IMG/VR virus record: IMGVR_UViG_3300008108_003798
Reading direction: 5' to 3' (one strand)
Origin: a virus
Lineage: Duplodnaviria; Caudoviricetes
DNA: 64,000 nt
The notes under the pieces: model-generated
Database searches by the model: none
What the model was told of the DNA's origin: nothing
The model's input: only the letters and a program-made list of their open reading frames with translations
Program-made: the position numbers and the translations under genes
Shown: one piece after another, positions 5,009-62,938 of the stretch
How the letters are laid out: every line of letters begins with the position of its first letter
Position numbering within the stretch: position 1 is the stretch's first letter

Positions 5009-5212
5009 TTACATAACACCTTGCATTTTTTCAATTACTGGTACCAGTCTTTCAAGTATGACAGTAATCAGTATGAATGCAAGTAAACCAAATAAAACCC
5101 AATTTTTCTTTTTGCTTTGACTCAGCAGTGCCATAGCAATGATTTCATTGCCCAACAGTCTTAGGCTGATTTCAAATTTTTCTTCTGGTGCTGGGTTATC
5201 GTTGTCGTCCAT
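5009..5212 (-). CDS. small membrane protein
   Basis: 67 aa with one hydrophobic helix. Confidence 0.6.
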   Translation of the reverse strand: MDDNDNPAPEEKFEISLRLLGNEIIAMALLSQSKKKNWVLFGLLAFILITVILERLVPVIEKMQGVM

Positions 5213-5216
5213 ACAA

Positions 5217-5372
5217 CTATTTAGTTTTACGACGAGTGTTTTTCTTTGGCTGTTCCACTGTTGGCTTTAGAGTGACGTGACGTTCTTTATATCTTCCACA
5301 ACGACCTTTGCCTACATAGTAGGGAGTGCCATCTTCTCGCAGGTATTCGTAAACATAGTAATCTGTGTGCAT
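5217..5372 (-). pseudogene. truncated GIY-YIG-like homing endonuclease N-terminus (51 aa)
   Basis: Manual translation MHTDYYVYEYLREDGTPYYVGKGRCGRYKERH..., followed by an early stop. Confidence 0.6.
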
Positions 5373-5386
5373 AATAGTATTTATGA

Positions 5387-5790
5387 GGAGATTCTGTTGC
5401 TACGCTCTCCCCGGGCGCCCTGTAGTTATGCTGCTAGAGCAAACTCAGAAGGTGCAAAATTTTCATTTGCAGTTGTCATTTTCTTCGCGGTAACGGCGCT
5501 TAGATCCCGGTGACTCCATCCTGCCTAGTTCGTTGATCGATCCTATGTCAGGCCCATCATAAAAATACTGCGATTAATCCTAATACTAAAACAAATATAA
5601 TACTTACATTACCCCAAAAGATCTGTTCTTGCTCAGTCGGTACCTGTTCATCACAGTACTTTTTCCAATCAAGATCTTCGCTTCTGTCTTTACTCTCATC
5701 GTAATATACATACATCATCAGTCTTCTTATGGTGGACCTGCCGGGTGCCGCCCCCGGGTCTCATCCGTGTTCAGTGAACTTCAACATCAC
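5387..5790 (-). ncRNA. ssrA: circularly permuted two-piece tmRNA (acceptor piece ~5730-5790, coding piece ~5387-5555)
   Basis: T-arm plus acceptor end ACCCGGGGGCGGCACCCGGCAGGTCCACCA lies upstream of the 5' end GGGCCTGACATAGGATCG. They form a 7-bp acceptor stem with G3:U70. Tag frame ANENFAPSEFALAA* at 5426-5470. Confidence 0.93.
5557..5718 (-). CDS. 53-aa single-TM protein encoded inside the tmRNA intervening segment
   Basis: MMYVYYDESKDRSEDLDWKKYCDEQVPTEQEQIFWGNVSIIFVLVLGLIAVFL*; fills 162 of the 174 nt of the intervening segment. Confidence 0.65.
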   Translation of the reverse strand: MMYVYYDESKDRSEDLDWKKYCDEQVPTEQEQIFWGNVSIIFVLVLGLIAVFL

Positions 5791-5794
5791 AAGT

Positions 5795-5802
5795 TATTTA
5801 TA
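5795..5802 (-). promoter_or_regulatory. T4-like late promoter motif TATAAATA upstream of ssrA
   Basis: Exact TATAAATA. Related (A/C)TAAATA motifs precede many minus-strand genes (near 4000, 8960, 10260, 21350, 22580, 39208, 41625, 47350). Confidence 0.6.
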
Positions 5803-5850
5803 TGCTAAAACAGTCAACCAGTCAAGAACTTTTTTGTGTATGCTTGTTCG

Positions 5851-8730
5851 TCATTTCGCTGCTGCAATACGACGTGAGAGAGTGGCTTGAGCGTTGTATT
5901 CCTCTTGCCATTTCGACGGGCCGTTGGAGGGCGACACCTGAACTGCCGTAACCTTGTATTCTGGACAGTTGGTAGCCCAATCGCTGAAATCGGTGGTGAT
6001 AACATTGGCTTGGGTGTCGGGGTGGTGGAAGGTGGTGTAGACCACGCCCGGATTGACTTTGTCGGTCAGTGTTGCTCGCAGGGTGGTTTCCCCGGCACGT
6101 GAGGCCAGACGCACCCAATCACCCTCTTTGACACCGCGCACTTCAGCATCGTGGGGATGGATTTCCAACAAATCTTCAGTATGCCATATACTGTTCGCTG
6201 TGCGGCGTGTTTGGGCGCCCACGTTGTACTGCGACAGGATACGGCCCGTGGTGAGTAGCAGCGGGAAACGCGGGCCAGTGCGTTCATCAGTGGCAATATA
6301 TTCGGTGTTGATGAACCGACCTTTGCCACGCACGAAGGCATCGACGTGCATCAAAGGCGTGCCTTCAGGCGCTTTTTCGTTGCAGGGCCACTGGACCGAG
6401 CCCATCTCTTCGATCTTGTCATAGCTGACACCGGCGAAGGACGGCGTGGTCATGGCAATCTCTTCCATGATCTGCACCGGGTGGGTGTAGTTCCAGTTGG
6501 CACCCATTGCGTTAGCGAACAACTGGGTGACTTCCCAATCGGCATAACCCGGCTTCGGAGCCATTACCTTGCGTACCATGTTGATGCGGCGCTCAGTGTT
6601 GGTAAAGGTGCCGTCCTTTTCCAAGAAACTCGATCCAGGGAAGAACACATGGGCGTAGTTTGCGGTCTCGTTCAGGAACAGGTCATGCACGATCACGCAT
6701 TCCATCGCTGCCAGACCTGCCGCAACGTGCTTGGTGTCCGGGTCAGATTGCAGGATGTCTTCGCCTTGGCAGTACAACCCCTTGAAGGTGCCCTCCACGG
6801 CGGCATCCAGCATGTTGGGGATACGCAGGCCCGGCTCATTATCGATCTTCACGCCCCAGAGGTTTTCATAGATTGCCCGTACATCGTCGTTCTTCACATG
6901 GCGGTAACCCGGCAGTTCGTGCGGGAAGGATCCCATGTCGCACGAGCCTTGCACGTTGTTTTGGCCACGCAGCGGGTTCACACCCACGCCCGGACGGCCA
7001 ATGTTGCCGGTCATCATCGCCAAGTTTGCAATGCCGATCACGGTGGTCGAGCCTTGCGAATGTTCCGTCACGCCCAGACCGTAGTAGATCGAGCCGTTGC
7101 CGCCGGTGGCATAGGTGCGGGCCGCGGCGCGGACATCCTCGGCCTTGACGCCGGTTAGGATTTCCACCGCTTCGGGCGAATGGTTCGGGCGGCTGACAAA
7201 CTCGGCATAGTCTTGGAATTCATCCCAGTCGCAGCGGGTGCGGATGAACTCTTCGTTGTAGAGCTTTTCGGTCACGATCACATGCGCCAGTGCGGTGACC
7301 ATGGCCACGTTGGTGCCTGGTGTAAGTGCAAGGTGATGTACTGCTTTGATATGCGGGCTTACTACAATTTCAGTGCGGCGAGGGTCAATGACTATCAGTT
7401 TCGCTCCTTTACGCAGGCGTTTTTTTAGACGGCTTGCAAAGACCGGGTGACCTACAGCAGGATTGGCTCCAATCACAATGGCCACATCTGTATATTCTAC
7501 CGAATCAAAGTCTTGCGTTCCAGCACTGGTACCAAGAGTCTGACCCAAGCCATAACCGGTGGGCGAATGGCAGACGCGGGCGCAGGTGTCAGTGTTGTTG
7601 TTCAGGAACACTGCTCGAGTCAGTTTCTGCACCAGATAGGTTTCTTCATTGGTGCAGCGCGACGAGGTGATCACACCCACGGACTTTTGCCCGTATTTGG
7701 AAATTATGCCCTTCATGCGGTTCGCGGCGAATTCCATCGCCTCGGCCCACGAGACTTCTTTCCACGGGTCGTTGATGCTGTCGCGGATCATCGGCGACAG
7801 GATGCGGTCTTGGTGGGAGGCATAGCCATAGGCAAAGCGGCCCTTGACGCAGGAATGGCCACGGTTGGCCTTGCCGTGCTTGTAAGGGACCATCCGCACC
7901 AGCTCGTCGCCGCGCAGTTCAGCTTTAAACTGGCAACCCACACCGCAATAGGCGCAGGTGGTGATGACAGAGCGTTCCGGTGTGCCGATTTCGATGATCG
8001 ACTTTTCCTGCAAGGTCGCTGTCGGGCAGGCTTGTACGCAGGCACCGCAGGACACGCAATCCGAGGCCAGCGCATCATCGGTTTTTGCACCGAACGACAC
8101 ACGGCTGTCAAAGCCTCGACCTTCGATGGTCAGCGCAAAGGTGCCCTGCACCTCTTCACAAGCCCGCACACAGCGCGAGCAGACGATGCATTTCGCCGGG
8201 TCATAGGTGAAGTAGGGGTTGCTCTCGTCCTTGGCTTTCCACTGCGGATTGGCCTCGCCAGAGTTGTTCTTGGCGCGGAAGTGGGTGTCGATCGCCTCAT
8301 AGCGCACATCGCGCAGGCCGACGGCACCAGCCATGTCCTGCAACTCGCAATCGCCATTGGCCGAGCAGGTCAGGCAGTCCAGCGGGTGGTCCGAGATATA
8401 CAACTCCATTACGCCGCGACGCAGTTGTTTCAGATTGCCGGTTTGGGTTTTCACCCGGATGCCGGGGGCAACGGGCGTGGTGCAAGAGGCGGGCGTGCCA
8501 TTGCGGCCTTCGATTTCCACAAGGCACAGGCGGCAGGAGCCAAAGGCCTCAAGGTTGTCGGTCGCGCACAGCTTTGGCACTGTGATGCCAATCTCGGCGG
8601 CGGCTCGCATTATGCTGGTGTCTTTGGGCACGGTCACATCGAACCCGTCGATGTTCAGGGTCACCGTAGCGGTCGAACGCACATAGGGCGTGCCAAAATC
8701 GCGGTCCGAGGGAATAATGAAGTCTTTCAT
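5851..8730 (-). CDS. fdsA: NAD-dependent formate dehydrogenase alpha subunit (Mo-bisPGD, Fe-S), 959 aa
   Basis: Start MKDFIIPSDRDFGTP; 2Fe-2S motif GSCRLCLVE..ASC; HPLDCLTC; CIVCSRCVRAC; CVSCGACVQACP; CAYCGVGC; active-site TCARVCHSP; PLRGQNNVQG. Confidence 0.93.
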   Translation of the reverse strand: MKDFIIPSDRDFGTPYVRSTATVTLNIDGFDVTVPKDTSIMRAAAEIGITVPKLCATDNLEAFGSCRLCLVEIEGRNGTPASCTTPVAPGIRVKTQTGNLKQLRRGVMELYISDHPLDCLTCSANGDCELQDMAGAVGLRDVRYEAIDTHFRAKNNSGEANPQWKAKDESNPYFTYDPAKCIVCSRCVRACEEVQGTFALTIEGRGFDSRVSFGAKTDDALASDCVSCGACVQACPTATLQEKSIIEIGTPERSVITTCAYCGVGCQFKAELRGDELVRMVPYKHGKANRGHSCVKGRFAYGYASHQDRILSPMIRDSINDPWKEVSWAEAMEFAANRMKGIISKYGQKSVGVITSSRCTNEETYLVQKLTRAVFLNNNTDTCARVCHSPTGYGLGQTLGTSAGTQDFDSVEYTDVAIVIGANPAVGHPVFASRLKKRLRKGAKLIVIDPRRTEIVVSPHIKAVHHLALTPGTNVAMVTALAHVIVTEKLYNEEFIRTRCDWDEFQDYAEFVSRPNHSPEAVEILTGVKAEDVRAAARTYATGGNGSIYYGLGVTEHSQGSTTVIGIANLAMMTGNIGRPGVGVNPLRGQNNVQGSCDMGSFPHELPGYRHVKNDDVRAIYENLWGVKIDNEPGLRIPNMLDAAVEGTFKGLYCQGEDILQSDPDTKHVAAGLAAMECVIVHDLFLNETANYAHVFFPGSSFLEKDGTFTNTERRINMVRKVMAPKPGYADWEVTQLFANAMGANWNYTHPVQIMEEIAMTTPSFAGVSYDKIEEMGSVQWPCNEKAPEGTPLMHVDAFVRGKGRFINTEYIATDERTGPRFPLLLTTGRILSQYNVGAQTRRTANSIWHTEDLLEIHPHDAEVRGVKEGDWVRLASRAGETTLRATLTDKVNPGVVYTTFHHPDTQANVITTDFSDWATNCPEYKVTAVQVSPSNGPSKWQEEYNAQATLSRRIAAAK

Positions 8731-8761
8731 TCGGCGGCGTCCATCTGGGCTATTTGAGTGC

Positions 8762-8953
8762 TTACCATGTTTTTTTGCTCCATGCTTCTTCGAACCCGTC
8801 TTCGTGAACAACGTTTTCATGATTACCCCAGATACGTTCAAAGTAACCGTTGTACACACTCATGATGTCTTTTTCACTCCATGCATCTGGAATCAGGTGT
8901 CCTTTGACAATCCAATAATATCTATTGGCTTCTTTGTGTTCGTATGCTGTCAC
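8762..8953 (-). CDS. hypothetical protein
   Basis: 63-aa ORF downstream of an ATAAATA motif. Confidence 0.65.
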   Translation of the reverse strand: MTAYEHKEANRYYWIVKGHLIPDAWSEKDIMSVYNGYFERIWGNHENVVHEDGFEEAWSKKTW

Positions 8954-45670: not shown

Positions 45671-46197
45671 GCAATCACGTCGTCGAGACCCAACCACTGA
45701 TACCAACTGTCGTGCTTGACATCAAACGGCATCTGCTTGCGCTTGCGAACCAATTCATAGTAGCCCGGCTGATAAGGCTTGTAATGTGGCTTCATACGGC
45801 TGAAGTTGGCTTTGCGACTGTTGCAAGGAGCACAGGCTGTGATGATGTTGTCCCAACGAGTCTTACCACCTTTTGACAGTGGAATCACGTGGTCCATGGT
45901 AGCAGTCTTGTTGCTCACACGAGTGCTGCAATATTGGCAAGTGTAGAGGTCACGTAGATACACGTTGCTCTTGGAGAAGCGTGGTGTTGTGTTTCTACGT
46001 AGGTAATCACGTAGCATGATTACTGCTGGGACACGGGTTTCCCAACGGGCCGAATGCACAACCCAATCATCGTACCATTCCAATACGTCACACTTGTCGT
46101 GGTACATATATAGAATTGCTTCTTTCCAGCTTACCGCACTTAGCGGCACTAAACTAACTGGCTGGCCGTCTGCGTTAATAAGCAATGTGTCTGACAT
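45667..46197 (-). CDS. HNH endonuclease
   Basis: LINADGQP; RDLYTCQYC..TMDHVIPLSKGG..WDNIITACAPCN. Confidence 0.9.
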   Translation of the reverse strand: MSDTLLINADGQPVSLVPLSAVSWKEAILYMYHDKCDVLEWYDDWVVHSARWETRVPAVIMLRDYLRRNTTPRFSKSNVYLRDLYTCQYCSTRVSNKTATMDHVIPLSKGGKTRWDNIITACAPCNSRKANFSRMKPHYKPYQPGYYELVRKRKQMPFDVKHDSWYQWLGLDDVIA

Positions 46198-46214
46198 GAT
46201 TTTCTTCTTTCTAG

Positions 46215-46559
46215 TTACTGTGGTTCAAAGTTTATACCTGTTAATATTTCACATGCTACACCATCTGGGTACAGCATAGCCACGGAAACCGTTCCGGTCT
46301 CTTGATTTGATAATACAGTGAGAACACCTATTGCGTCAACTACTTTTTGTTCATCTAAGATAAAACTATAGCCTTGACTGAAAAACAATGGCGTCTCACC
46401 GTAGACTGCTTTTCTTTCTGCAAGATATGCTGTGCCGCTGGGACTGCACACCCCATACATGGTAACCGGCATCAATGTGCTGTCCAGTTCTGGTTCTGCT
46501 GTTTGTGCCAACACCGCTCCTGGAAGAAACACTGCTAGTACTGCTGTTTTTATATTCAC
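46215..46559 (-). CDS. secreted hypothetical protein
   Basis: Signal peptide; terminal GVACEILTG. Confidence 0.65.
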   Translation of the reverse strand: MNIKTAVLAVFLPGAVLAQTAEPELDSTLMPVTMYGVCSPSGTAYLAERKAVYGETPLFFSQGYSFILDEQKVVDAIGVLTVLSNQETGTVSVAMLYPDGVACEILTGINFEPQ

Positions 46560-56136: not shown

Positions 56137-56212
56137 GCCCGGTTAGCCCAAAGGTAGAGGCAACAGACTTAAAATCTGTCAAGCGTCGGTTCGACCCCGA
56201 CACTGGGTACCA
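56137..56212 (+). tRNA. tRNA-Leu(UAA) with a short variable arm
   Basis: Cloverleaf; anticodon loop CTTAAAA; GGTTCGA; encoded CCA; TATAAATA at 56123-56130. Confidence 0.8.
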
Positions 56213-56218
56213 AACATT

Positions 56219-56295
56219 GGGGGATTAGCTCAATTGGTTAGAGCGTCGGACTCATAATCCGCAGGTTATCGGTTCAAGTCCGGTATCCCCTACCA
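56219..56295 (+). tRNA. tRNA with a CAU anticodon (elongator Met or Ile2)
   Basis: Anticodon loop CTCATAA; GGTTCAAGTCC; CCA. Confidence 0.9.
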
Positions 56296-56297
56296 TA

Positions 56298-56374
<77 letters not shown>

Positions 56375-58002: not shown

Positions 58003-58086
58003 ATTGCAATCGCAGTCTTAGAGGTTGACAGGGCGGAACTGCTGTGCTATACATAACAAGTAAGCAACGCATAGAGGGAATACACA

Positions 58087-58386
58087 ATGCGTAAAGTTAC
58101 TGTCCTCCGCAAGTTCCAAACTGTTAAAGCAATGCGCGACTGTATTGCTGCTTATACTGCAAATGTTTTTGCAGACGAACTGCGCGAAGCTGCTGTTGCA
58201 ATGTATGCAAATGACATTGCGAGAGCTGTTGTTGCGCTTAACGAGTTTATTAGAACGAGTGACGCTGTTGCATTGCACAAGCGTATTATGTATTGGGACA
58301 CAGACGTGCGGGAAGCATTTGTTAGCGTGTTGCACTACATAGAGCAAGAGCAAATGGTGCCTGCTACGGAGTTTGCTGTGCTGTAA
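58087..58386 (+). CDS. early hypothetical protein (largely TC/CC-free)
   Basis: Promoter and RBS. Confidence 0.7.
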   Translation: MRKVTVLRKFQTVKAMRDCIAAYTANVFADELREAAVAMYANDIARAVVALNEFIRTSDAVALHKRIMYWDTDVREAFVSVLHYIEQEQMVPATEFAVL

Positions 58387-58453
58387 CAACGAGGAGTTGA
58401 CAGCACAGTCTATCCGTGCTATACAATACAAATAGGGCAACAAGGAGCACACC

Positions 58454-58654
58454 ATGTCTAATGCACGTCTTGCAGAAATTGCTGCAAAGCACAGCGCAGC
58501 AATCCACGTCTACAAAACCACAGGAGAAATTGACAGCACGTCAGATCTCTACTTTGAAGTATATGAATATTTCGCAAACGAAATGGACTCTAAAGTCCGC
58601 CGCAGTGCTGCACGCCAGTTTGACTACATAACAGAAAAAATCCGCAGCCTGTAA
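58454..58654 (+). CDS. early hypothetical protein
   Basis: Promoter and RBS. Confidence 0.7.
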   Translation: MSNARLAEIAAKHSAAIHVYKTTGEIDSTSDLYFEVYEYFANEMDSKVRRSAARQFDYITEKIRSL

Positions 58655-58721
58655 GAATGTGGTTGACACAGCCCTGTAGATATGCTATAACGTATGAGTA
58701 GGGCAACAAAGGACAACACCA

Positions 58722-58901
58722 ATGATCAAGATTACTATTCCAGCAGTGTCGGTTCGCGAAGCAGTCGACATCCGCGACAGAATTCAGGGCGTGATCCTTG
58801 TGAAGGGTGAGACGGCTGTGATTGGCGATGGCGGTGTTGTGATCACCACAGACAATCCTGTGCGTGTGTGCCTTGAACTGCAAGGCGATGGCTTCATCTA
58901 A
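58722..58901 (+). CDS. early hypothetical protein (59 aa)
   Basis: Manual translation MIKITIPAVSVREAVDIRDRIQG... Confidence 0.65.
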   Translation: MIKITIPAVSVREAVDIRDRIQGVILVKGETAVIGDGGVVITTDNPVRVCLELQGDGFI

Positions 58902-59056
58902 CCCCGGCCAGGCGGGCTAAGTCATTGAAAACAATGGCAAATTTTTCTCGCACAAAAATGCTAAGTCGTTGTTTTTAAACGAATCATTTTGCTTGCAAAC
59001 TGTGCTGCATAGTGTATAACTGTACTTGTAAGCAACACAGCAGAGGGAAACACGCT

Positions 59057-59263
59057 ATGCAAAACACAGTTAAACTTGTGGACGTTGAGTATAACTATAA
59101 AAGCGAGCTTTGCGCTACGCTTACAAACAGCGTTAAAGCTGTGCGCTGCGAGGACGTGCTGTATTTGGACTTTGTAAGCTATGCTGCAATGTGTGCAGTA
59201 TACGAGGAGTGGTGCGAGCTTGCGGACGCGGGCGAAGAGGGTTATTTTTACGTAGCAGCGTAA
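59057..59263 (+). CDS. early hypothetical protein in the YC-free island
   Basis: GAGGGA RBS; MQNTVKLV... Confidence 0.7.
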   Translation: MQNTVKLVDVEYNYKSELCATLTNSVKAVRCEDVLYLDFVSYAAMCAVYEEWCELADAGEEGYFYVAA

Positions 59264-59361
59264 AAAAACTTGCAGCACACAGCACTTTTTAGTTGACAAG
59301 TGCTGTGTGCTGTGCTATACATAACTTGTAAGCAACACAGCACAGCAGAGGGAAACACGCT

Positions 59362-59649
59362 ATGCAAAACACAGTAGCAAATACAGCAAATACTAATTAC
59401 GTTTTTGTAATGCTTGATGACGCTACAAACGCAATTGTACTGCGTATTAATAAAACTGTTGACGTTTTTTGTAATAGTGCAAACGACATAATTGCTGCAT
59501 TTAAACAATATAATATTACGGACTGCGACACTATTATGTGCAGCAGTGACGTGGATTTTGCTACGGAGTTTGACTATGCGTACGACAGTGCAGTACACGA
59601 CATGCTTGACGAAGCTTTTGACGCACTAAATTTTAAACAATACGTTTAA
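59362..59649 (+). CDS. early hypothetical protein in the YC-free island
   Basis: GAGGGA RBS; MQNTVANT... Confidence 0.7.
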   Translation: MQNTVANTANTNYVFVMLDDATNAIVLRINKTVDVFCNSANDIIAAFKQYNITDCDTIMCSSDVDFATEFDYAYDSAVHDMLDEAFDALNFKQYV

Positions 59650-59739
59650 AAAAACAGCAGCACACAGCACTTTTTACTTGACGAGTGCTGTGTGCTGTGC
59701 TATAACTTACACACGGGCAACACACGAGAGGGACTGCAC

Positions 59740-59931
59740 ATGACACGCGAAGAACTGTTTGCTAAAATTGCTGCAATTGCTGCTGACGCATACGACAGCA
59801 CGGATGCTGACGAAGTGCAAAGCTGGGATGCATACGAAGCAGCGAAACAGATTGTTATTGCAATGCAGACGGTTGGCTACGACATAACATATATGTTGGA
59901 GCAAATTGAGGAAGACGCTGACGAAGCGTAA
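59740..59931 (+). CDS. early hypothetical protein in the YC-free island
   Basis: GAGGGA RBS; MTREELFA... Confidence 0.7.
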   Translation: MTREELFAKIAAIAADAYDSTDADEVQSWDAYEAAKQIVIAMQTVGYDITYMLEQIEEDADEA

Positions 59932-60027
59932 CACAAAAAAAACTTGCAGCGCACAGCACTTTTTACTTGACGAGTGCTGTGTGCTGTGCTATACATAACT
60001 TGTAAGCAACGCAAGAGGGAACACGCT

Positions 60028-60315
60028 ATGCACACAGTAATTGCAGAATTTTTGCAGTGTTTTGCAGCATATATGCAGCATGTAGCCGCGCTAGCGGACG
60101 ACACGGAACTCGAGCCCGCGGATGCGGAAGACGCTGTTAAAATTGCACAGCAACTTCCTTTGCTGTATGCAGTTGTTTACAGTCCCCGTGCAGCACAATG
60201 CGCTGCGCTTGATGCGCTAGAAGTCGACTGCATTAACATGCTCGACACCAACGTGCGCGATTTCTTTGCTAACCTGTATACTGTTAACGCACTGTTCCGC
60301 AGCAACGAGTTGTAA
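60028..60315 (+). CDS. early hypothetical protein
   Basis: GAGGGA RBS; MHTVIAEF... Confidence 0.7.
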   Translation: MHTVIAEFLQCFAAYMQHVAALADDTELEPADAEDAVKIAQQLPLLYAVVYSPRAAQCAALDALEVDCINMLDTNVRDFFANLYTVNALFRSNEL

Positions 60316-60402
60316 TAAAAACTTGCAGCACACAGCACTTTTTACTTGACGAGTGCTGTGTGCTGTGCTATACATATTGCATAGGGCAAACAGGAGGGCA
60401 AG

Positions 60403-60543
60403 ATGAAGATTCAAATTAAAGCCGAAGACATCCAGCGCCGCGATCCGGTTGCTCGTGCATTGGCAGACAGTCGGTTCCAGCCTCGCACTGTGCGTGACAG
60501 AACCAAATACACCCGCAAACAGAAACACCGCAAAGCCTACTAA
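60403..60543 (+). CDS. small basic ArfA-like protein (46 aa)
   Basis: DPVARALADSRFQPRTVRDRTKYTRKQKH resembles the ArfA core. Confidence 0.55.
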   Translation: MKIQIKAEDIQRRDPVARALADSRFQPRTVRDRTKYTRKQKHRKAY

Positions 60544-60567
60544 GGCCCCGCTGTTAAGGAGATCGAC

Positions 60568-60744
60568 ATGACTTTCTACCATTACTTCAAGACCGTGTGC
60601 CTCTTGCTTGCTAGCCTTGTGGCGTTCATTGCAGTGATTAGCCCCGAGACTGTGGGCAAATGGCAGGCCCGCAAAGACGTTGCCTACGACAGTATCTGGA
60701 TCGAATGGATCAGTGACTGTGATTGCACAGAGCCACTGGAGTAA
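60568..60744 (+). CDS. small membrane protein (58 aa)
   Basis: AGGAG RBS; hydrophobic N-terminus. Confidence 0.55.
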   Translation: MTFYHYFKTVCLLLASLVAFIAVISPETVGKWQARKDVAYDSIWIEWISDCDCTEPLE

Positions 60745-60833
60745 GCGACTTTCCGCTTACTGCGGATAAAACCCGTTGACTCACCTGTAGATCATGCTAT
60801 AAGTATAATACGAACGACAAAAAGGAGAAACCA

Positions 60834-61433
60834 ATGCGGATGATTCACATCCTCGGCGGCGTCGCTTCTTCAGCCGTGATCGTTGCAATGGCAGTGGTTT
60901 ACTTGACGGCAGATGAGGCAAAAGCAGCCGTTGACCCCGTAGAAATCGTATATGTTGACCGAGTAGTAGAACGAGTGGTGGAGCGTGTGGTGCATGTGCC
61001 CATGCCCACCAGACCTGGCCAAGATCCTGAGGCTATCTTTGCTGATGCCGGCACAGAAGACCTATACTGTCTAGCACAGAACATCTACTTTGAAAGCAGA
61101 GGCGAGAGCAAGGTAGGCCAAGAGTTTGTAGGTTGGGTTACACTGAACAGAGTTCAGAACTCAGACTTCCCCAGCGAGATCTGCAGGGTAGTGTGGCAGG
61201 ACAGCCAGTTCTCATGGACACATGACGGCAAGAGCGACCAACCACGAGATGCTGCGGCTTGGGCAACAGCACAGACCATTGCCCTTGAAGTGGTGCAGGC
61301 CTATGGTGTAGAACGTGATCCAACCGAAGGCGCAACCTACTTCCATGCTACCTCAGTCCGACCTAGTTGGGCCAAGAAGTTCGAACGTGTGGTACAGATC
61401 GATAACCATATCTTCTACGTAGATAGAGGTTGA
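60834..61433 (+). CDS. SleB-like cell wall hydrolase (Hydrolase_2)
   Basis: CLAQNIYFESRGES..VTLNRV..QFSW..TEGATYFH..IDNHIFY. Confidence 0.92.
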   Translation: MRMIHILGGVASSAVIVAMAVVYLTADEAKAAVDPVEIVYVDRVVERVVERVVHVPMPTRPGQDPEAIFADAGTEDLYCLAQNIYFESRGESKVGQEFVGWVTLNRVQNSDFPSEICRVVWQDSQFSWTHDGKSDQPRDAAAWATAQTIALEVVQAYGVERDPTEGATYFHATSVRPSWAKKFERVVQIDNHIFYVDRG

Positions 61434-61786
61434 CACACTGGTTGCCCTGTGCTATACATAACGTATAGGGCAACACAGGAGACACCAGATGTGGCAAGTA
61501 AGAACACAGTTCTCCAAACCTAACGCAGACAATCCTACTGGGCCTTTGGAGTGGAACGCGGTGTTGGTGGCGACAGAAGCAGAAGCAGAAGCATGGTGGC
61601 ACACTCGGACCACTAGTTAGAGTCCTGTTCAAATAACGGTTGACAACCCAGTTGCCCTGTGCTATACATAACACATAGGGCAACACAACAACGAGGCACA
61701 AGATGAAACTTCCGATCCTGCTTTCCGCAATTATGATTGCTGTCGCTGCACATCACTACTTCACTTTCGCCTAAGGGGGCTGCGCT

Positions 61787-61975
61787 ATGCTGAACTCACA
61801 AGAACTCACAGAGCGTGGTTGGAACATCTATCGTTCCAACAACTGGATTGGTCGTCATCGTGAAACTGGTCGGAAGATCACTGCTGGCACACACCTCACC
61901 CTGCTGCACCTGCTGAACTACGAAGAGTGGCAGAACTCGCAAACTTGGAGCACCGTGCTGGAACAAACTGGTTGA
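61787..61975 (+). CDS. early hypothetical protein
   Basis: ORF track. Confidence 0.6.
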   Translation: MLNSQELTERGWNIYRSNNWIGRHRETGRKITAGTHLTLLHLLNYEEWQNSQTWSTVLEQTG

Positions 61976-62034
61976 CAGCACACCAAACAGATGTTATAGT
62001 TAACGCATAGGGCAACACACTAGAGGGCAAACAC

Positions 62035-62436
62035 ATGTATACCTTTGATGAACAGATTGTTAGCGACCTCCACAAGGACGCTCGCGGCTATCGTCCGGAT
62101 GAGTACTTCTGGGAAGAGTGGAGCCAGTGCGGCGACCTTACTCGTCAATCCATGTGGGACAACCTGCTGGAGGAACTGGCAGCGGAGACAGCACGGCAGC
62201 GGGACGCTTATGCTCGTGCAGAGATCCACTTCCACCAGCGTGTCCAAGGCACTATGTTGGCAGGTGCCGAAGACGAACTCACTGCCATCCGTTGGATCCT
62301 TGAGGCCGAACAGTTCACTAACTCGGACTTGGCCTACGGTTCGGACTATGTGGCTTGGCACTTTGGACTGCCCTACAAAGGCGAATTTGATCAGCAGATC
62401 CAGACTGTGATCACGGCTATGGAGTCTGAGAACTAA
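62035..62436 (+). CDS. early hypothetical protein
   Basis: SDLHKDARGYRP motif common in phage early proteins. Confidence 0.75.
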   Translation: MYTFDEQIVSDLHKDARGYRPDEYFWEEWSQCGDLTRQSMWDNLLEELAAETARQRDAYARAEIHFHQRVQGTMLAGAEDELTAIRWILEAEQFTNSDLAYGSDYVAWHFGLPYKGEFDQQIQTVITAMESEN

Positions 62437-62505
62437 GTGGTTGACACAGTGTAACGGCCGTGCTATACATACGACATAGGGCAACACACTAGAGGGACTA
62501 CACCA

Positions 62506-62868
62506 ATGATGAAGTATGCAATCCTGTTCTCCATCCTTGCTTTTCCAGTGTTTGCACACAGCGGCGGTCTCGATCGCAACGGCTGCCACAACGACAACAT
62601 CAATGGTGGATACCACTGCCATCGTGAATCATCCAACAGCGAAGTTGCTCACAACGACAACAACGACCTTGAACGGCTGTTGATGGGTATCGTGGCTGTT
62701 GGTGTTATTTCTGCTGCGATTGCTCCTCAATCAGAACCTGTGTACCACCAGCCCGCAGTCCGTGCATGTGTGGTTGAAGAAGTAGAGTATACTCCGACTC
62801 GCGTTTACGTGGCAGTGATCGATACTTGTGCTGGACACATCCTAGATCAATATTCCTACAATCGCTGA
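62506..62868 (+). CDS. secreted YHYH-domain protein
   Basis: Signal peptide, then HSGGLDRNGCHND..GGYHCH. Confidence 0.8.
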   Translation: MMKYAILFSILAFPVFAHSGGLDRNGCHNDNINGGYHCHRESSNSEVAHNDNNDLERLLMGIVAVGVISAAIAPQSEPVYHQPAVRACVVEEVEYTPTRVYVAVIDTCAGHILDQYSYNR

Positions 62869-62938
62869 ACTAAGTGGTTGACAACCCTGCTCAAGCCTGC
62901 TATACATAACACATAGGGCAACACAAGAGGAACACACC

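What the first reader, a model, noticed from the sequence alone, without database searches (positions are those of the whole stretch)
5387..5790. Phage permuted tmRNA whose intervening segment encodes a 53-aa membrane protein
Seen: the gene order is acceptor piece (ending CCA at 5730), a 174-nt intervening segment, then the coding piece (GGGCCUG 5' end, G3:U70, tag ANENFAPSEFALAA). An ORF with an acidic N-terminus and one C-terminal TM helix fills 162 of the 174 nt. It starts 12 nt after CCA and stops 1 nt before the RNase P cleavage point. Established: alphaproteobacterial ssrA is circularly permuted, and its intervening segment is normally short, non-coding and discarded. Inference: the precursor may double as an mRNA, coupling expression of a small membrane protein to tmRNA maturation, or the spacer serves as a safe insertion site for cargo.
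Basis: partly seen in the sequence, partly recalled or inferred. Interest (0 to 1): 0.85.

Follow-up and report, generated by a model that had tools for sequence, protein, structure and literature searches.

The report
Membrane-protein gene inside phage tmRNA spacer
A freshwater T4-like phage carries a split (two-piece) tmRNA gene, and the spacer that is cut out during maturation holds a real, conserved 53-codon membrane-protein gene; related phages use the same spacer as an exchangeable slot for other small genes, so a supposedly throw-away part of a stable RNA probably also serves as a messenger RNA.

Summary
Two Rfam models call a complete permuted alpha-type tmRNA on the minus strand (5829..5382). 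CCA ends at 5730, the intervening segment (IVS) is 174 nt, and the coding piece starts with GGGCCUG at 5555 (G3:U pair, tag ANENFAPSEFALAA). The 53-aa ORF (5718..5557) is not a chance frame. It belongs to an unnamed small-protein family with 18 representative clusters at 35-54% identity, four invariant residues, third-codon-position wobble and a C-terminal membrane helix. The eight distant homologs I examined are free-standing phage genes with their own ribosome-binding sites. Only the window's close relatives (87-96% aa) carry the gene inside the tmRNA.

A survey gives the context. In 103 bacterial alpha-type genes the IVS has a median of 30 nt and a maximum of 83. In viral contigs 48 of 119 are 100 nt or longer. 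Half of the non-redundant long ones hold a sense ORF that fills them. Two ORF families there have dN/dS of 0.10-0.24. Segment identities show cassette exchange: the same cargo sits in different tmRNA backbones, and the same backbone holds different cargo.

Translation from the pre-tmRNA is inferred, not shown. The window's ribosome-binding site is weak and lies inside the closing helix. I found no paper describing this. The scan has noted the same layout on other DNA (44 notes, at least 39 genomes).

The parts
5795..5825 (-). Probable promoter of the tmRNA gene: -35 TTGACT (5825..5820), a 17-nt spacer, and -10 TATAAA within TATAAATA (5802..5795), which also matches the T4-type late promoter motif.
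   Evidence: Read. Both hexamers are invariant in five relatives whose flanks differ. The layout resembles the phage's own repeated TTGACA-17-TATACATAAC elements at 58-63 kb. The consensus scan did not call it, because it requires T at the last -10 position.
5730..5791 (-). Acceptor piece of the two-piece tmRNA: 5' strand of P2, T-arm (stem 5757..5753 and 5745..5741, loop 5752..5746), 3' acceptor strand CAGGUCC (5740..5734), and ACCA (5733..5730).
   Evidence: Rfam alignments and the sequence. The 5' end is taken from the RF04321 model start and is approximate.
5556..5729 (-). Intervening segment (IVS), 174 nt, absent from the mature tmRNA.
   Evidence: It is an unaligned insert in both Rfam models. 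Its length was computed.
5719..5729 (-). 5' arm of the IVS closing helix (UAAGAAGACUG). It holds the weak Shine-Dalgarno-like AAGAAG.
   Evidence: It pairs with 5570..5560 at 10 of 11 positions, one of them G:U, and the helix appears in the MFE and centroid folds. Pairing in this same register is specific across phage and bacterial IVS.
5557..5718 (-). 53-aa ORF plus TGA: a tail-anchored small membrane protein with an acidic N-terminal part (residues 1-32; 4 basic and 10 acidic) and a hydrophobic helix (residues 33-53).
5556..5570 (-). 3' arm of the closing helix (CAGUAUUUUUA, 5570..5560) followed by the conserved UGAU (5559..5556). It overlaps the last codons (A-V-F-L) and the stop codon.
5382..5555 (-). 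Coding piece of the tmRNA: 5' acceptor strand GGGCCUG (5555..5549), 3' strand of P2, the tag reading frame, and the 3' tail up to the end of the RF01849 model.
   Evidence: The 3' end is approximate, and no terminator was found.
5426..5470 (-). Tag reading frame: GCA resume codon through UAA, encoding ANENFAPSEFALAA.

Best explanation
The phage encodes a complete alpha-type two-piece tmRNA. In this lineage, the hairpin spacer between the CCA end of the acceptor piece and the RNase P site of the coding piece has captured a pre-existing phage gene. The gene encodes a 53-aa tail-anchored membrane protein. No separate promoter is apparent between the tmRNA promoter and the ORF, so the gene can only be transcribed as part of the pre-tmRNA (inferred). 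The most likely sequence of events is as follows. Ribosomes load on the nascent precursor before the downstream acceptor strand is made. They terminate at the UGA one nt before G1. The acceptor stem and the 11-bp closing helix then form, which hides the ribosome-binding region and the start codons. RNase P and the 3'-end processing enzymes then release the two tmRNA pieces and the spacer (all inferred). The spacer acts as an exchangeable slot. The highly conserved T-arm and acceptor sequences on either side let cargo move between tmRNA genes by homologous recombination (shown by mosaic identities). What the protein does is unknown. Its free-standing homologs often lie beside phage superoxide dismutase and IscU/IscA-like genes, and its shape suggests a small membrane modulator.
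For: 1. The tmRNA anatomy is confirmed.
2. The ORF is a real gene family. HMMER against 1.84 billion representatives gives 18 hits with E from 2.6e-10 to 1e-3. In the alignment S13, W18, Q32 and W35 are invariant, and Y6, D11, K20, E24 and E31 are nearly so. Identity by codon position is 0.57/0.69/0.415. AlphaFold2 gives mean pLDDT 85 with a helix at residues 29-52.
3. All eight distant homologs examined are free-standing genes, most with a canonical ribosome-binding site. None lies in a tmRNA. This indicates capture into the spacer.
4. The ORF is intact in six further contig loci from five distinct IMG/VR and JGI contigs. One has an in-frame extra codon.
5. Cassette exchange is visible in segment identities. 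Window versus L247: IVS 94% identical, flanking tmRNA segments 44-55%. L247 versus L005: flanks 82-91%, IVS 33%. The T-arm is 94-100% identical in all.
6. The layout is general. 20 of 40 non-redundant viral IVS of 100 nt or more have a sense ORF covering at least 70%. The antisense strand gives 4 of 40, and shuffled sequences give 5% (at most 7 of 40 in any of 200 shuffles). Families A and B have dN/dS of 0.10-0.24 at dS 0.7-1.6. A Shine-Dalgarno core lies upstream of 14 of 19 such ORFs against a 10% background. No bacterial IVS among 103 species exceeds 83 nt.
7. One RNA-library contig spans 5466-5623, which covers the coding piece and the 3' half of the ORF. This is weak evidence.
Against: Translation of this particular ORF is not shown. 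The window's family has no canonical Shine-Dalgarno core (AAGAAG). Its leader and its AUG codons are paired in the closing helix. Among the IVS-borne copies there are only 2-9 nucleotide differences, so dN/dS is uninformative; window versus L247 gives about 1.0-1.5. A known analog, the ORF in the Coxiella 23S rRNA intervening sequence, is reported not to be made in vivo (PMC4990558). The RNA contig could come from DNA carry-over. Contigs cannot show RNA ends, so processing at 5730 and 5555 is assumed from what is known of permuted tmRNA (PMC11915505).
Confidence: 0.75

Rival explanations
1. The gene is a silent passenger. It was captured into the spacer but is not translated there. It persists only because the insertion is recent or because the RNA is constrained as part of the precursor hairpin, as with the S23p ORF in the Coxiella 23S rRNA intervening sequence.
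For: The ribosome-binding site is weak and interrupted, and it lies with the start codons inside the closing helix. Most changes between the window and L247 are non-synonymous, and the 3' half is identical at the nucleotide level. There is a precedent in PMC4990558.
Against: All invariant and nearly invariant family residues are kept. The frame is intact in six further contig loci, and the only indel is one whole codon. The L247 changes move towards the family consensus, for example D17G giving 'FGW'. Other spacer ORF families are clearly under purifying selection and most have good ribosome-binding sites.
Confidence: 0.17
2. The ORF is mainly regulatory. What matters is the act of translating it, which times or gates formation of the acceptor stem and therefore tmRNA maturation. 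The peptide itself is irrelevant.
For: The ORF lies between the two strands of the acceptor stem, and its stop codon is one nt from the RNase P site. A terminating ribosome must therefore cover the 5' acceptor strand.
Against: The peptide sequence is conserved at 35-54% identity in free-standing genes that have no tmRNA context. Unrelated proteins occupy the same slot in other phages. A relative with the same coding-piece body has only a 12-nt spacer, so the ORF is not needed for maturation.
Confidence: 0.06
3. The ORF is a chance open frame in an AT-rich spacer.
For: The spacer is 33% G+C and short. The terminal TGA is an ancestral part of the precursor.
Against: Family-wide conservation and the codon-position pattern argue against chance. 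Sense ORFs are in excess over antisense ORFs and shuffles.
Confidence: 0.02

Closest known systems
Circularly permuted (two-piece) tmRNA genes of Alphaproteobacteria and of aquatic T4-like phages such as Methylophilales phage Melnitz and the pelagimyophages (Rfam RF01849 and RF04321; PMC11915505, PMC9004378)
   Same: The gene order is acceptor piece, spacer, coding piece. The acceptor stem has a G3:U pair. The tag ends in ALAA. The spacer is a hairpin ending in UGAU before G1. The gene is phage-borne and follows an early-type promoter.
   Different: The described spacers are treated as non-coding. The 2025 tmRNA database paper mentions only one tRNA gene and one repetitive element inside spacers. 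Here the spacer is 174 nt and holds a conserved protein gene. In my sample the bacterial spacers had a median of 30 nt and a maximum of 83. Melnitz itself has an unannotated 58-codon frame that starts in its spacer.
Intervening sequences of bacterial 23S rRNA that carry the S23p ORF (Coxiella burnetii; PMC4990558)
   Same: A protein-coding frame lies inside a stem-closed segment that is excised from a stable-RNA precursor.
   Different: That element lies in rRNA helix 45, is excised by RNase III, and its ORF is reported as not translated in vivo and decaying. Here the host RNA is a tmRNA, excision would be by tRNA-processing enzymes, and the ORF families are under purifying selection.
Group I introns with homing-endonuclease genes in the T-loop of tmRNA genes (PMC11915505)
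   Same: A protein gene is nested in a tmRNA gene and removed from the mature RNA.
   Different: There is no intron here: Rfam reports no group I intron. The spacer is removed by cleavage without ligation. The cargo is a small membrane protein, not an endonuclease.
tRNA-punctuated transcripts, in which mRNAs are released by RNase P and 3'-end tRNA processing (mitochondrial punctuation model; from general knowledge)
   Same: The coding segment is bounded on both sides by tRNA-type processing sites.
   Different: Here both sites belong to one tRNA-like domain of a single permuted gene, so the message lies inside the stable-RNA gene rather than between genes.

Membership tests
Permuted two-piece tmRNA, alpha type (RF01849 / RF04321) | Covariance-model score above the curated threshold over the full model | tested here: met
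   95.6 bits against a cut-off of 50, and 89.2 bits against 47; both models matched end to end.
Permuted two-piece tmRNA, alpha type (RF01849 / RF04321) | Gene order: acceptor piece (ending in CCA), then intervening segment, then coding piece | tested here: met
   CCA ends at 5730, the IVS is 5729..5556, and G1 is at 5555.
Permuted two-piece tmRNA, alpha type (RF01849 / RF04321) | 7-bp acceptor stem with a G3:U pair (alanine identity) and a T-arm | tested here: met
   GGGCCUG pairs with CAGGUCC, and position 3 is G:U. The T stem-loop aligns to the model.
Permuted two-piece tmRNA, alpha type (RF01849 / RF04321) | Tag reading frame with a GCA resume codon that ends in a hydrophobic ..LAA tail plus a stop | tested here: met
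   5470..5426 encodes ANENFAPSEFALAA plus stop.
Permuted two-piece tmRNA, alpha type (RF01849 / RF04321) | Precursor cleaved into two base-paired RNAs that act in trans-translation with SmpB | not testable with these tools
   Only RNA-library contigs were available, and they show no RNA ends.
Unnamed phage small-protein family (consensus YDPxxDRSEEFGWKKxCDExxPTExEQxxWG followed by a C-terminal membrane helix) | Conserved N-terminal motif with invariant S, W, Q and W | tested here: met
   Alignment of 18 sequences. HMMER E-values from 2.6e-10 to 1e-3.
Unnamed phage small-protein family (consensus YDPxxDRSEEFGWKKxCDExxPTExEQxxWG followed by a C-terminal membrane helix) | Single C-terminal hydrophobic helix (tail anchor) | tested here: met
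   Mean Kyte-Doolittle hydropathy of residues 33-53 is +2.58. The AlphaFold2 model has a helix at 29-52 with pLDDT 95-98.
Unnamed phage small-protein family (consensus YDPxxDRSEEFGWKKxCDExxPTExEQxxWG followed by a C-terminal membrane helix) | Listed in a curated family library | tested here: not met
   No PHROG family and no significant Pfam family matches.
Group I intron in a tmRNA gene | Group I intron core structure interrupting the T-loop | tested here: not met
   Rfam reports no intron family in the window at the gathering threshold. The insert lies after CCA, not in the T-loop.
rRNA-type intervening sequence (RNase III-excised) | Located in 23S rRNA helix 25 or 45 | tested here: not met
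   The host RNA is a tmRNA. This is an analogy, not membership.

The most novel reading that the evidence does not exclude
In aquatic T4-like phages the pre-tmRNA is a true dual-function transcript. Its stem-closed spacer is a general, recombination-exchangeable expression slot for small, mostly membrane, proteins. The slot is transcribed from the tmRNA promoter, translated before or after tRNA-type processing, and switched off when the closing helix forms. This would make it a new class of gene nested in a stable-RNA gene.
Probability: 0.55. Interest if true: 0.85.

Novelty: new variant of a known kind. Interest (0 to 1): 0.74.

Why it matters
The spacer of permuted tmRNA genes has been treated as disposable RNA. 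If it is a working gene slot, four things follow. First, phage and metagenome annotation pipelines that mask tmRNA genes are discarding real small-protein genes; Melnitz appears to be an example. Second, pre-tmRNA becomes a natural case of one transcript serving as both mRNA and stable-RNA precursor, with a built-in structural switch, the closing helix over the ribosome-binding site and the stop codon. This can be tested with simple reporter constructs. Third, the conserved tRNA-like arms act as portable homology arms for exchange of small genes between phages. Fourth, it points to a set of small phage membrane proteins co-expressed with a ribosome-rescue RNA early in infection, whose functions are unknown.

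Tried and rejected
- ARAGORN on the window found three tRNAs but not the tmRNA.
- blastn of the locus against 50,697 phage records found nothing. tblastn of the 53-aa protein there gave only chance-level hits.
- No whole genome is held for the window.
- The word-indexed protein search found a single close relative. Only the exhaustive HMMER search revealed the family.
- Pfam and PHROGs have no family for the protein.
- The 38-aa ORF of L005 is too short for the homology tool, so its coding status is untested.
A trimmed alignment found one more free-standing homolog.
- The consensus scan called no promoter and no terminator around the gene.
- RNA evidence was thin. The metatranscriptome runs hold only small parts of the locus as contigs. 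No RNA ends, no joints and no cover of the acceptor piece or the 5' half of the ORF were obtained. This says nothing about absence.
- dN/dS within the window's own IVS-borne clade is uninformative because there are only 2-9 differences.
- The Pfam scan does not support the GIY-YIG appearance of the ORF at 5217-5372.
- Keiler 2000 and Sharkady & Williams 2004 could not be read.
- I did not run a fold search on the 53-aa model or a complex prediction, because neither would discriminate between the explanations.

Full report
**1. What is at the coordinates**

Rfam at gathering thresholds calls one tmRNA on the minus strand. RF01849 (alpha_tmRNA) matches 5829..5382 at 95.6 bits. RF04321 (tmRNA_permuted) matches 5791..5426 at 89.2 bits. 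Both are full-length matches, and both leave a large unaligned insert between the CCA end and the 5' end of the coding piece.

The sequence gives the following layout:
- The T-arm and the 3' acceptor strand CAGGUCC, followed by ACCA ending at 5730.
- A 174-nt intervening segment (IVS), 5729..5556.
- GGGCCUG at 5555..5549, which forms a 7-bp acceptor stem whose third pair is G:U.
- A tag frame at 5470..5426 encoding ANENFAPSEFALAA.

ARAGORN misses the gene. The ORF at 5718..5557 is 53 codons plus TGA. It starts at the 12th nt after CCA and ends one nt before G1.

The contig is a T4-like phage. It carries class I ribonucleotide reductase genes, tail fibre genes, and a virion protein 57% identical to those of cyanomyophages. 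Near-identical DNA occurs in lake, freshwater and estuary metagenomes.

**2. Is the ORF a gene?**

Yes. An exhaustive HMMER search of 1.84 billion cluster representatives found 18 proteins, most of them 44-67 aa long, with E from 2.6e-10 to 1e-3. Seventeen of them aligned with the window protein share 35-52% identity with it. They share the motif YDPxxDRSEEFGWKKxCDExxPTExEQxxWG followed by a hydrophobic C-terminal segment. S13, W18, Q32 and W35 are invariant, and Y6, D11, K20, E24 and E31 are nearly so.

Across seven homologs with DNA in hand, plus the window's own gene, nucleotide identity is 0.57, 0.69 and 0.415 at codon positions 1, 2 and 3. This is the signature of a protein under selection. 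AlphaFold2 on this alignment gives mean pLDDT 85 and a helix at residues 29-52. Residues 1-32 carry 4 basic and 10 acidic residues, and residues 33-53 have mean hydropathy +2.58. The protein is a tail-anchored single-pass membrane protein. The family is in neither Pfam nor PHROGs.

**3. Where the family normally lives**

All eight distant homologs whose contigs I examined are free-standing genes in phage-like gene arrays. Most have a canonical ribosome-binding site such as AGGAG or AAGGAG.

Several of them lie in a recurring neighbourhood. In some contigs the gene follows a Sod_Fe gene and another small ORF. In others it precedes NifU_N and Fe-S_biosyn genes. One contig shows both flanks, and one lies next to a T4 gp9/10-like baseplate gene.

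No tmRNA is present in the seven loci scanned with Rfam, and none of the eight contexts has the CCACCA hallmark upstream. Only the window and its close relatives carry the gene inside a tmRNA: L001-L004, L006 and L247, at 87-96% amino-acid identity. The window has no second copy.

The simplest reading is that an existing phage gene was captured into the spacer. On capture, its last codons (A-V-F-L-stop) came to coincide with the 3' arm of the spacer hairpin. The free-standing homologs end differently.

**4. The spacer as a slot**

I located alpha-type permuted tmRNA genes by the coding-piece motif plus a complementary ...UCCACCA.
- In 103 bacterial species the spacer has a median of 30 nt, an interquartile range of about 24-37, and a maximum of 83.
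- In 119 IMG/VR loci it ranges from 5 to 499 nt, and 48 are 100 nt or longer.
- Of 40 non-redundant long viral spacers, 20 have a sense-strand ORF covering at least 70% of the spacer. The antisense strand gives 4. Shuffled sequences give 5%, and no set of shuffles exceeded 7 of 40. The Wilcoxon test of sense against antisense gives p = 1e-5.

Rfam confirmed full tmRNA genes around twelve of these ORFs.

Two ORF families had enough divergence to test. Family A is a 44-aa membrane peptide, with dN/dS of 0.10-0.15 at dS 0.7-1.0. Family B is a 62-aa cysteine-rich protein, with dN/dS of 0.13-0.24 at dS 0.9-1.6. A Shine-Dalgarno core lies 4-16 nt upstream of 14 of 19 non-redundant spacer ORFs, against a 10% background (p = 7e-11).

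Some families occur both inside and outside spacers:
- Family B is the free-standing gene 85 just upstream of the tmRNA in the cultured phage Melnitz.
- The spacer ORF of L041 resembles the window's free-standing ORF at 5009-5212 (BLASTP E = 1e-6).

**5. Cassette exchange**

Segment-by-segment identities show three things:
- The same cargo sits in different backbones. Window versus L247: spacer 94% identical, acceptor 5' part 44%, coding-piece 5' part 55%.
- The same backbone holds different cargo. L247 versus L005: 91% and 82% in those flanks, but 33% in the spacer. L005 has an unrelated 38-codon frame that starts and stops at the same places.
- The T-arm through CCA is 94-100% identical in all.

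The tag also varies independently: ANENFAPSEFALAA, ANTNAAPAMAIAA, ANSNYAPAMAIAA and ANNNFAPQAYALAA.

One RNA-library contig comes from a relative with the same coding-piece body (3 mismatches in 85 nt), a different acceptor stem and a spacer of only 12 nt. This is an empty slot, seen in a single low-depth contig. The conserved tRNA-like arms thus behave as homology arms for exchanging spacer cargo.

**6. Architecture and likely mechanism**

In bacteria and phages alike, the spacer is a hairpin. Its 5' arm starts right after CCA. Its 3' arm ends four nt (usually UGAU) before G1. Pairing is specific to this register. In many phage spacers the 5' arm contains the ribosome-binding site (for example UAAGGAG), and the UGA of UGAU serves as the stop codon.

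In the window, UAAGAAGACUG (5729..5719) pairs with CAGUAUUUUUA (5570..5560) at 10 of 11 positions. The MFE and centroid folds extend the acceptor stem through this helix and over the AUG codons.

The probable promoter has a -35 TTGACT, a 17-nt spacer and TATAAATA. It is conserved in relatives and resembles the phage's own repeated early-type elements. It lies only about 70 nt upstream of the ORF, so the ORF's transcript must be the pre-tmRNA.

My reading is inferred, not shown. Ribosomes can initiate on the nascent RNA before the downstream arm and acceptor strand exist. After termination at the UGA the helices close and occlude the initiation region. tRNA-type processing (PMC11915505) then yields the two tmRNA pieces and releases the spacer.

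One metatranscriptome contig bridges 5466-5623, the coding piece plus the 3' half of the ORF. This is compatible with a precursor, but DNA carry-over cannot be excluded.

**7. Weak points for this particular ORF**

- It lacks a canonical Shine-Dalgarno core.
- Its initiation region is paired in the closing helix.
- The IVS-borne copies differ at only 2-9 positions, so selection inside the slot cannot be measured. Window versus L247 is mostly non-synonymous, although the changes fall at variable positions and one restores the family consensus.
- The Coxiella 23S rRNA intervening sequence shows that an ORF in an excised segment can be silent (PMC4990558).

I therefore give about 0.75 to 'real gene, expressed from the pre-tmRNA' and about 0.17 to 'captured but silent'.

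**8. Novelty**

Phage two-piece tmRNAs are known (PMC9004378). The 2025 tmRNA database paper notes spacers holding a tRNA gene or a repetitive element, but no protein genes (PMC11915505). Four full-text searches aimed at spacer ORFs found no description of them.

In Melnitz, a 58-codon frame begins in the spacer behind a GGAG and reads through G1. It is not annotated, and two locus tags are missing at that place.

Earlier notes of this scan report the same layout on other DNA (44 notes, at least 39 genomes). This window is a further instance. It adds a new cargo family whose members outside the tmRNA are free-standing, and an explicit demonstration of cassette exchange.

Noticed in passing
window 5851-8859 (-): A 1002-aa formate dehydrogenase alpha-like gene (2Fe-2S, 4Fe-4S and molybdopterin domains) with 56% G+C sits in a 40% G+C phage, directly upstream of the tmRNA promoter. 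Relatives L003 and L247 have a Band_7 gene there instead. The junction is present in many independent metagenome runs, so it is probably a recent host-derived acquisition rather than a misassembly.
   Followed up: partly
window 5217-5372 (-): A 51-aa ORF just downstream of the tmRNA begins with a GIY-YIG-like motif (YVYEY...YYVGKG). It looks like a truncated homing endonuclease, but Pfam gives no hit. It could relate to the mosaic tag region.
   Followed up: partly
window 5009-5212 (-); L041 5211-5432 (-): A 67-aa small membrane protein downstream of the tmRNA is homologous to the ORF that fills the 247-nt tmRNA spacer of L041 (BLASTP E = 1e-6). This is another family found both inside and outside spacers.
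   Followed up: partly
L248 2793-2969 (Melnitz MZ577097, about 46084-46260): The spacer of the cultured phage Melnitz starts a 58-codon frame behind a GGAG. The frame has no stop before the RNase P site and reads into the coding piece. RNase P cleavage would make it a non-stop message. Similar peptides (...IPKYLSG.R) occur in the spacers of L100 and L038. It is not annotated, and locus tags 87-88 are missing.
   Followed up: partly
L038 2106-2606 (-): A 499-nt tmRNA spacer appears to hold two ORFs in tandem: a peptide of about 34 aa of the IPKYLSG type and a 120-aa multi-pass membrane protein.
   Followed up: no
window 58018-62925: About a dozen copies of a repeated intergenic element with the layout TTGACA, 17 nt, (TGC)TATACATAAC, ... 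TAGGGCAACACA. This is probably a family of early promoters with a conserved leader in front of small genes.
   Followed up: partly
L253, L254, L257, L258, L259, L260: Free-standing homologs of the 53-aa protein recur next to phage-borne Sod_Fe, NifU_N (IscU-like) and Fe-S_biosyn (IscA-like) genes in T4-like contigs. This may be a functional hint towards iron-sulfur or oxidative-stress biology.
   Followed up: no
L055 2150-2198; L248 3107-3155: Glutamine riboswitch aptamers (RF01739) lie beside phage tmRNA genes: upstream in L055 and downstream in Melnitz. The Melnitz case has been reported.
   Followed up: no
window 56137-56374 (+): A cluster of three tRNA genes: Leu-TAA, Met-CAT and Arg-TCT.
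   Followed up: no
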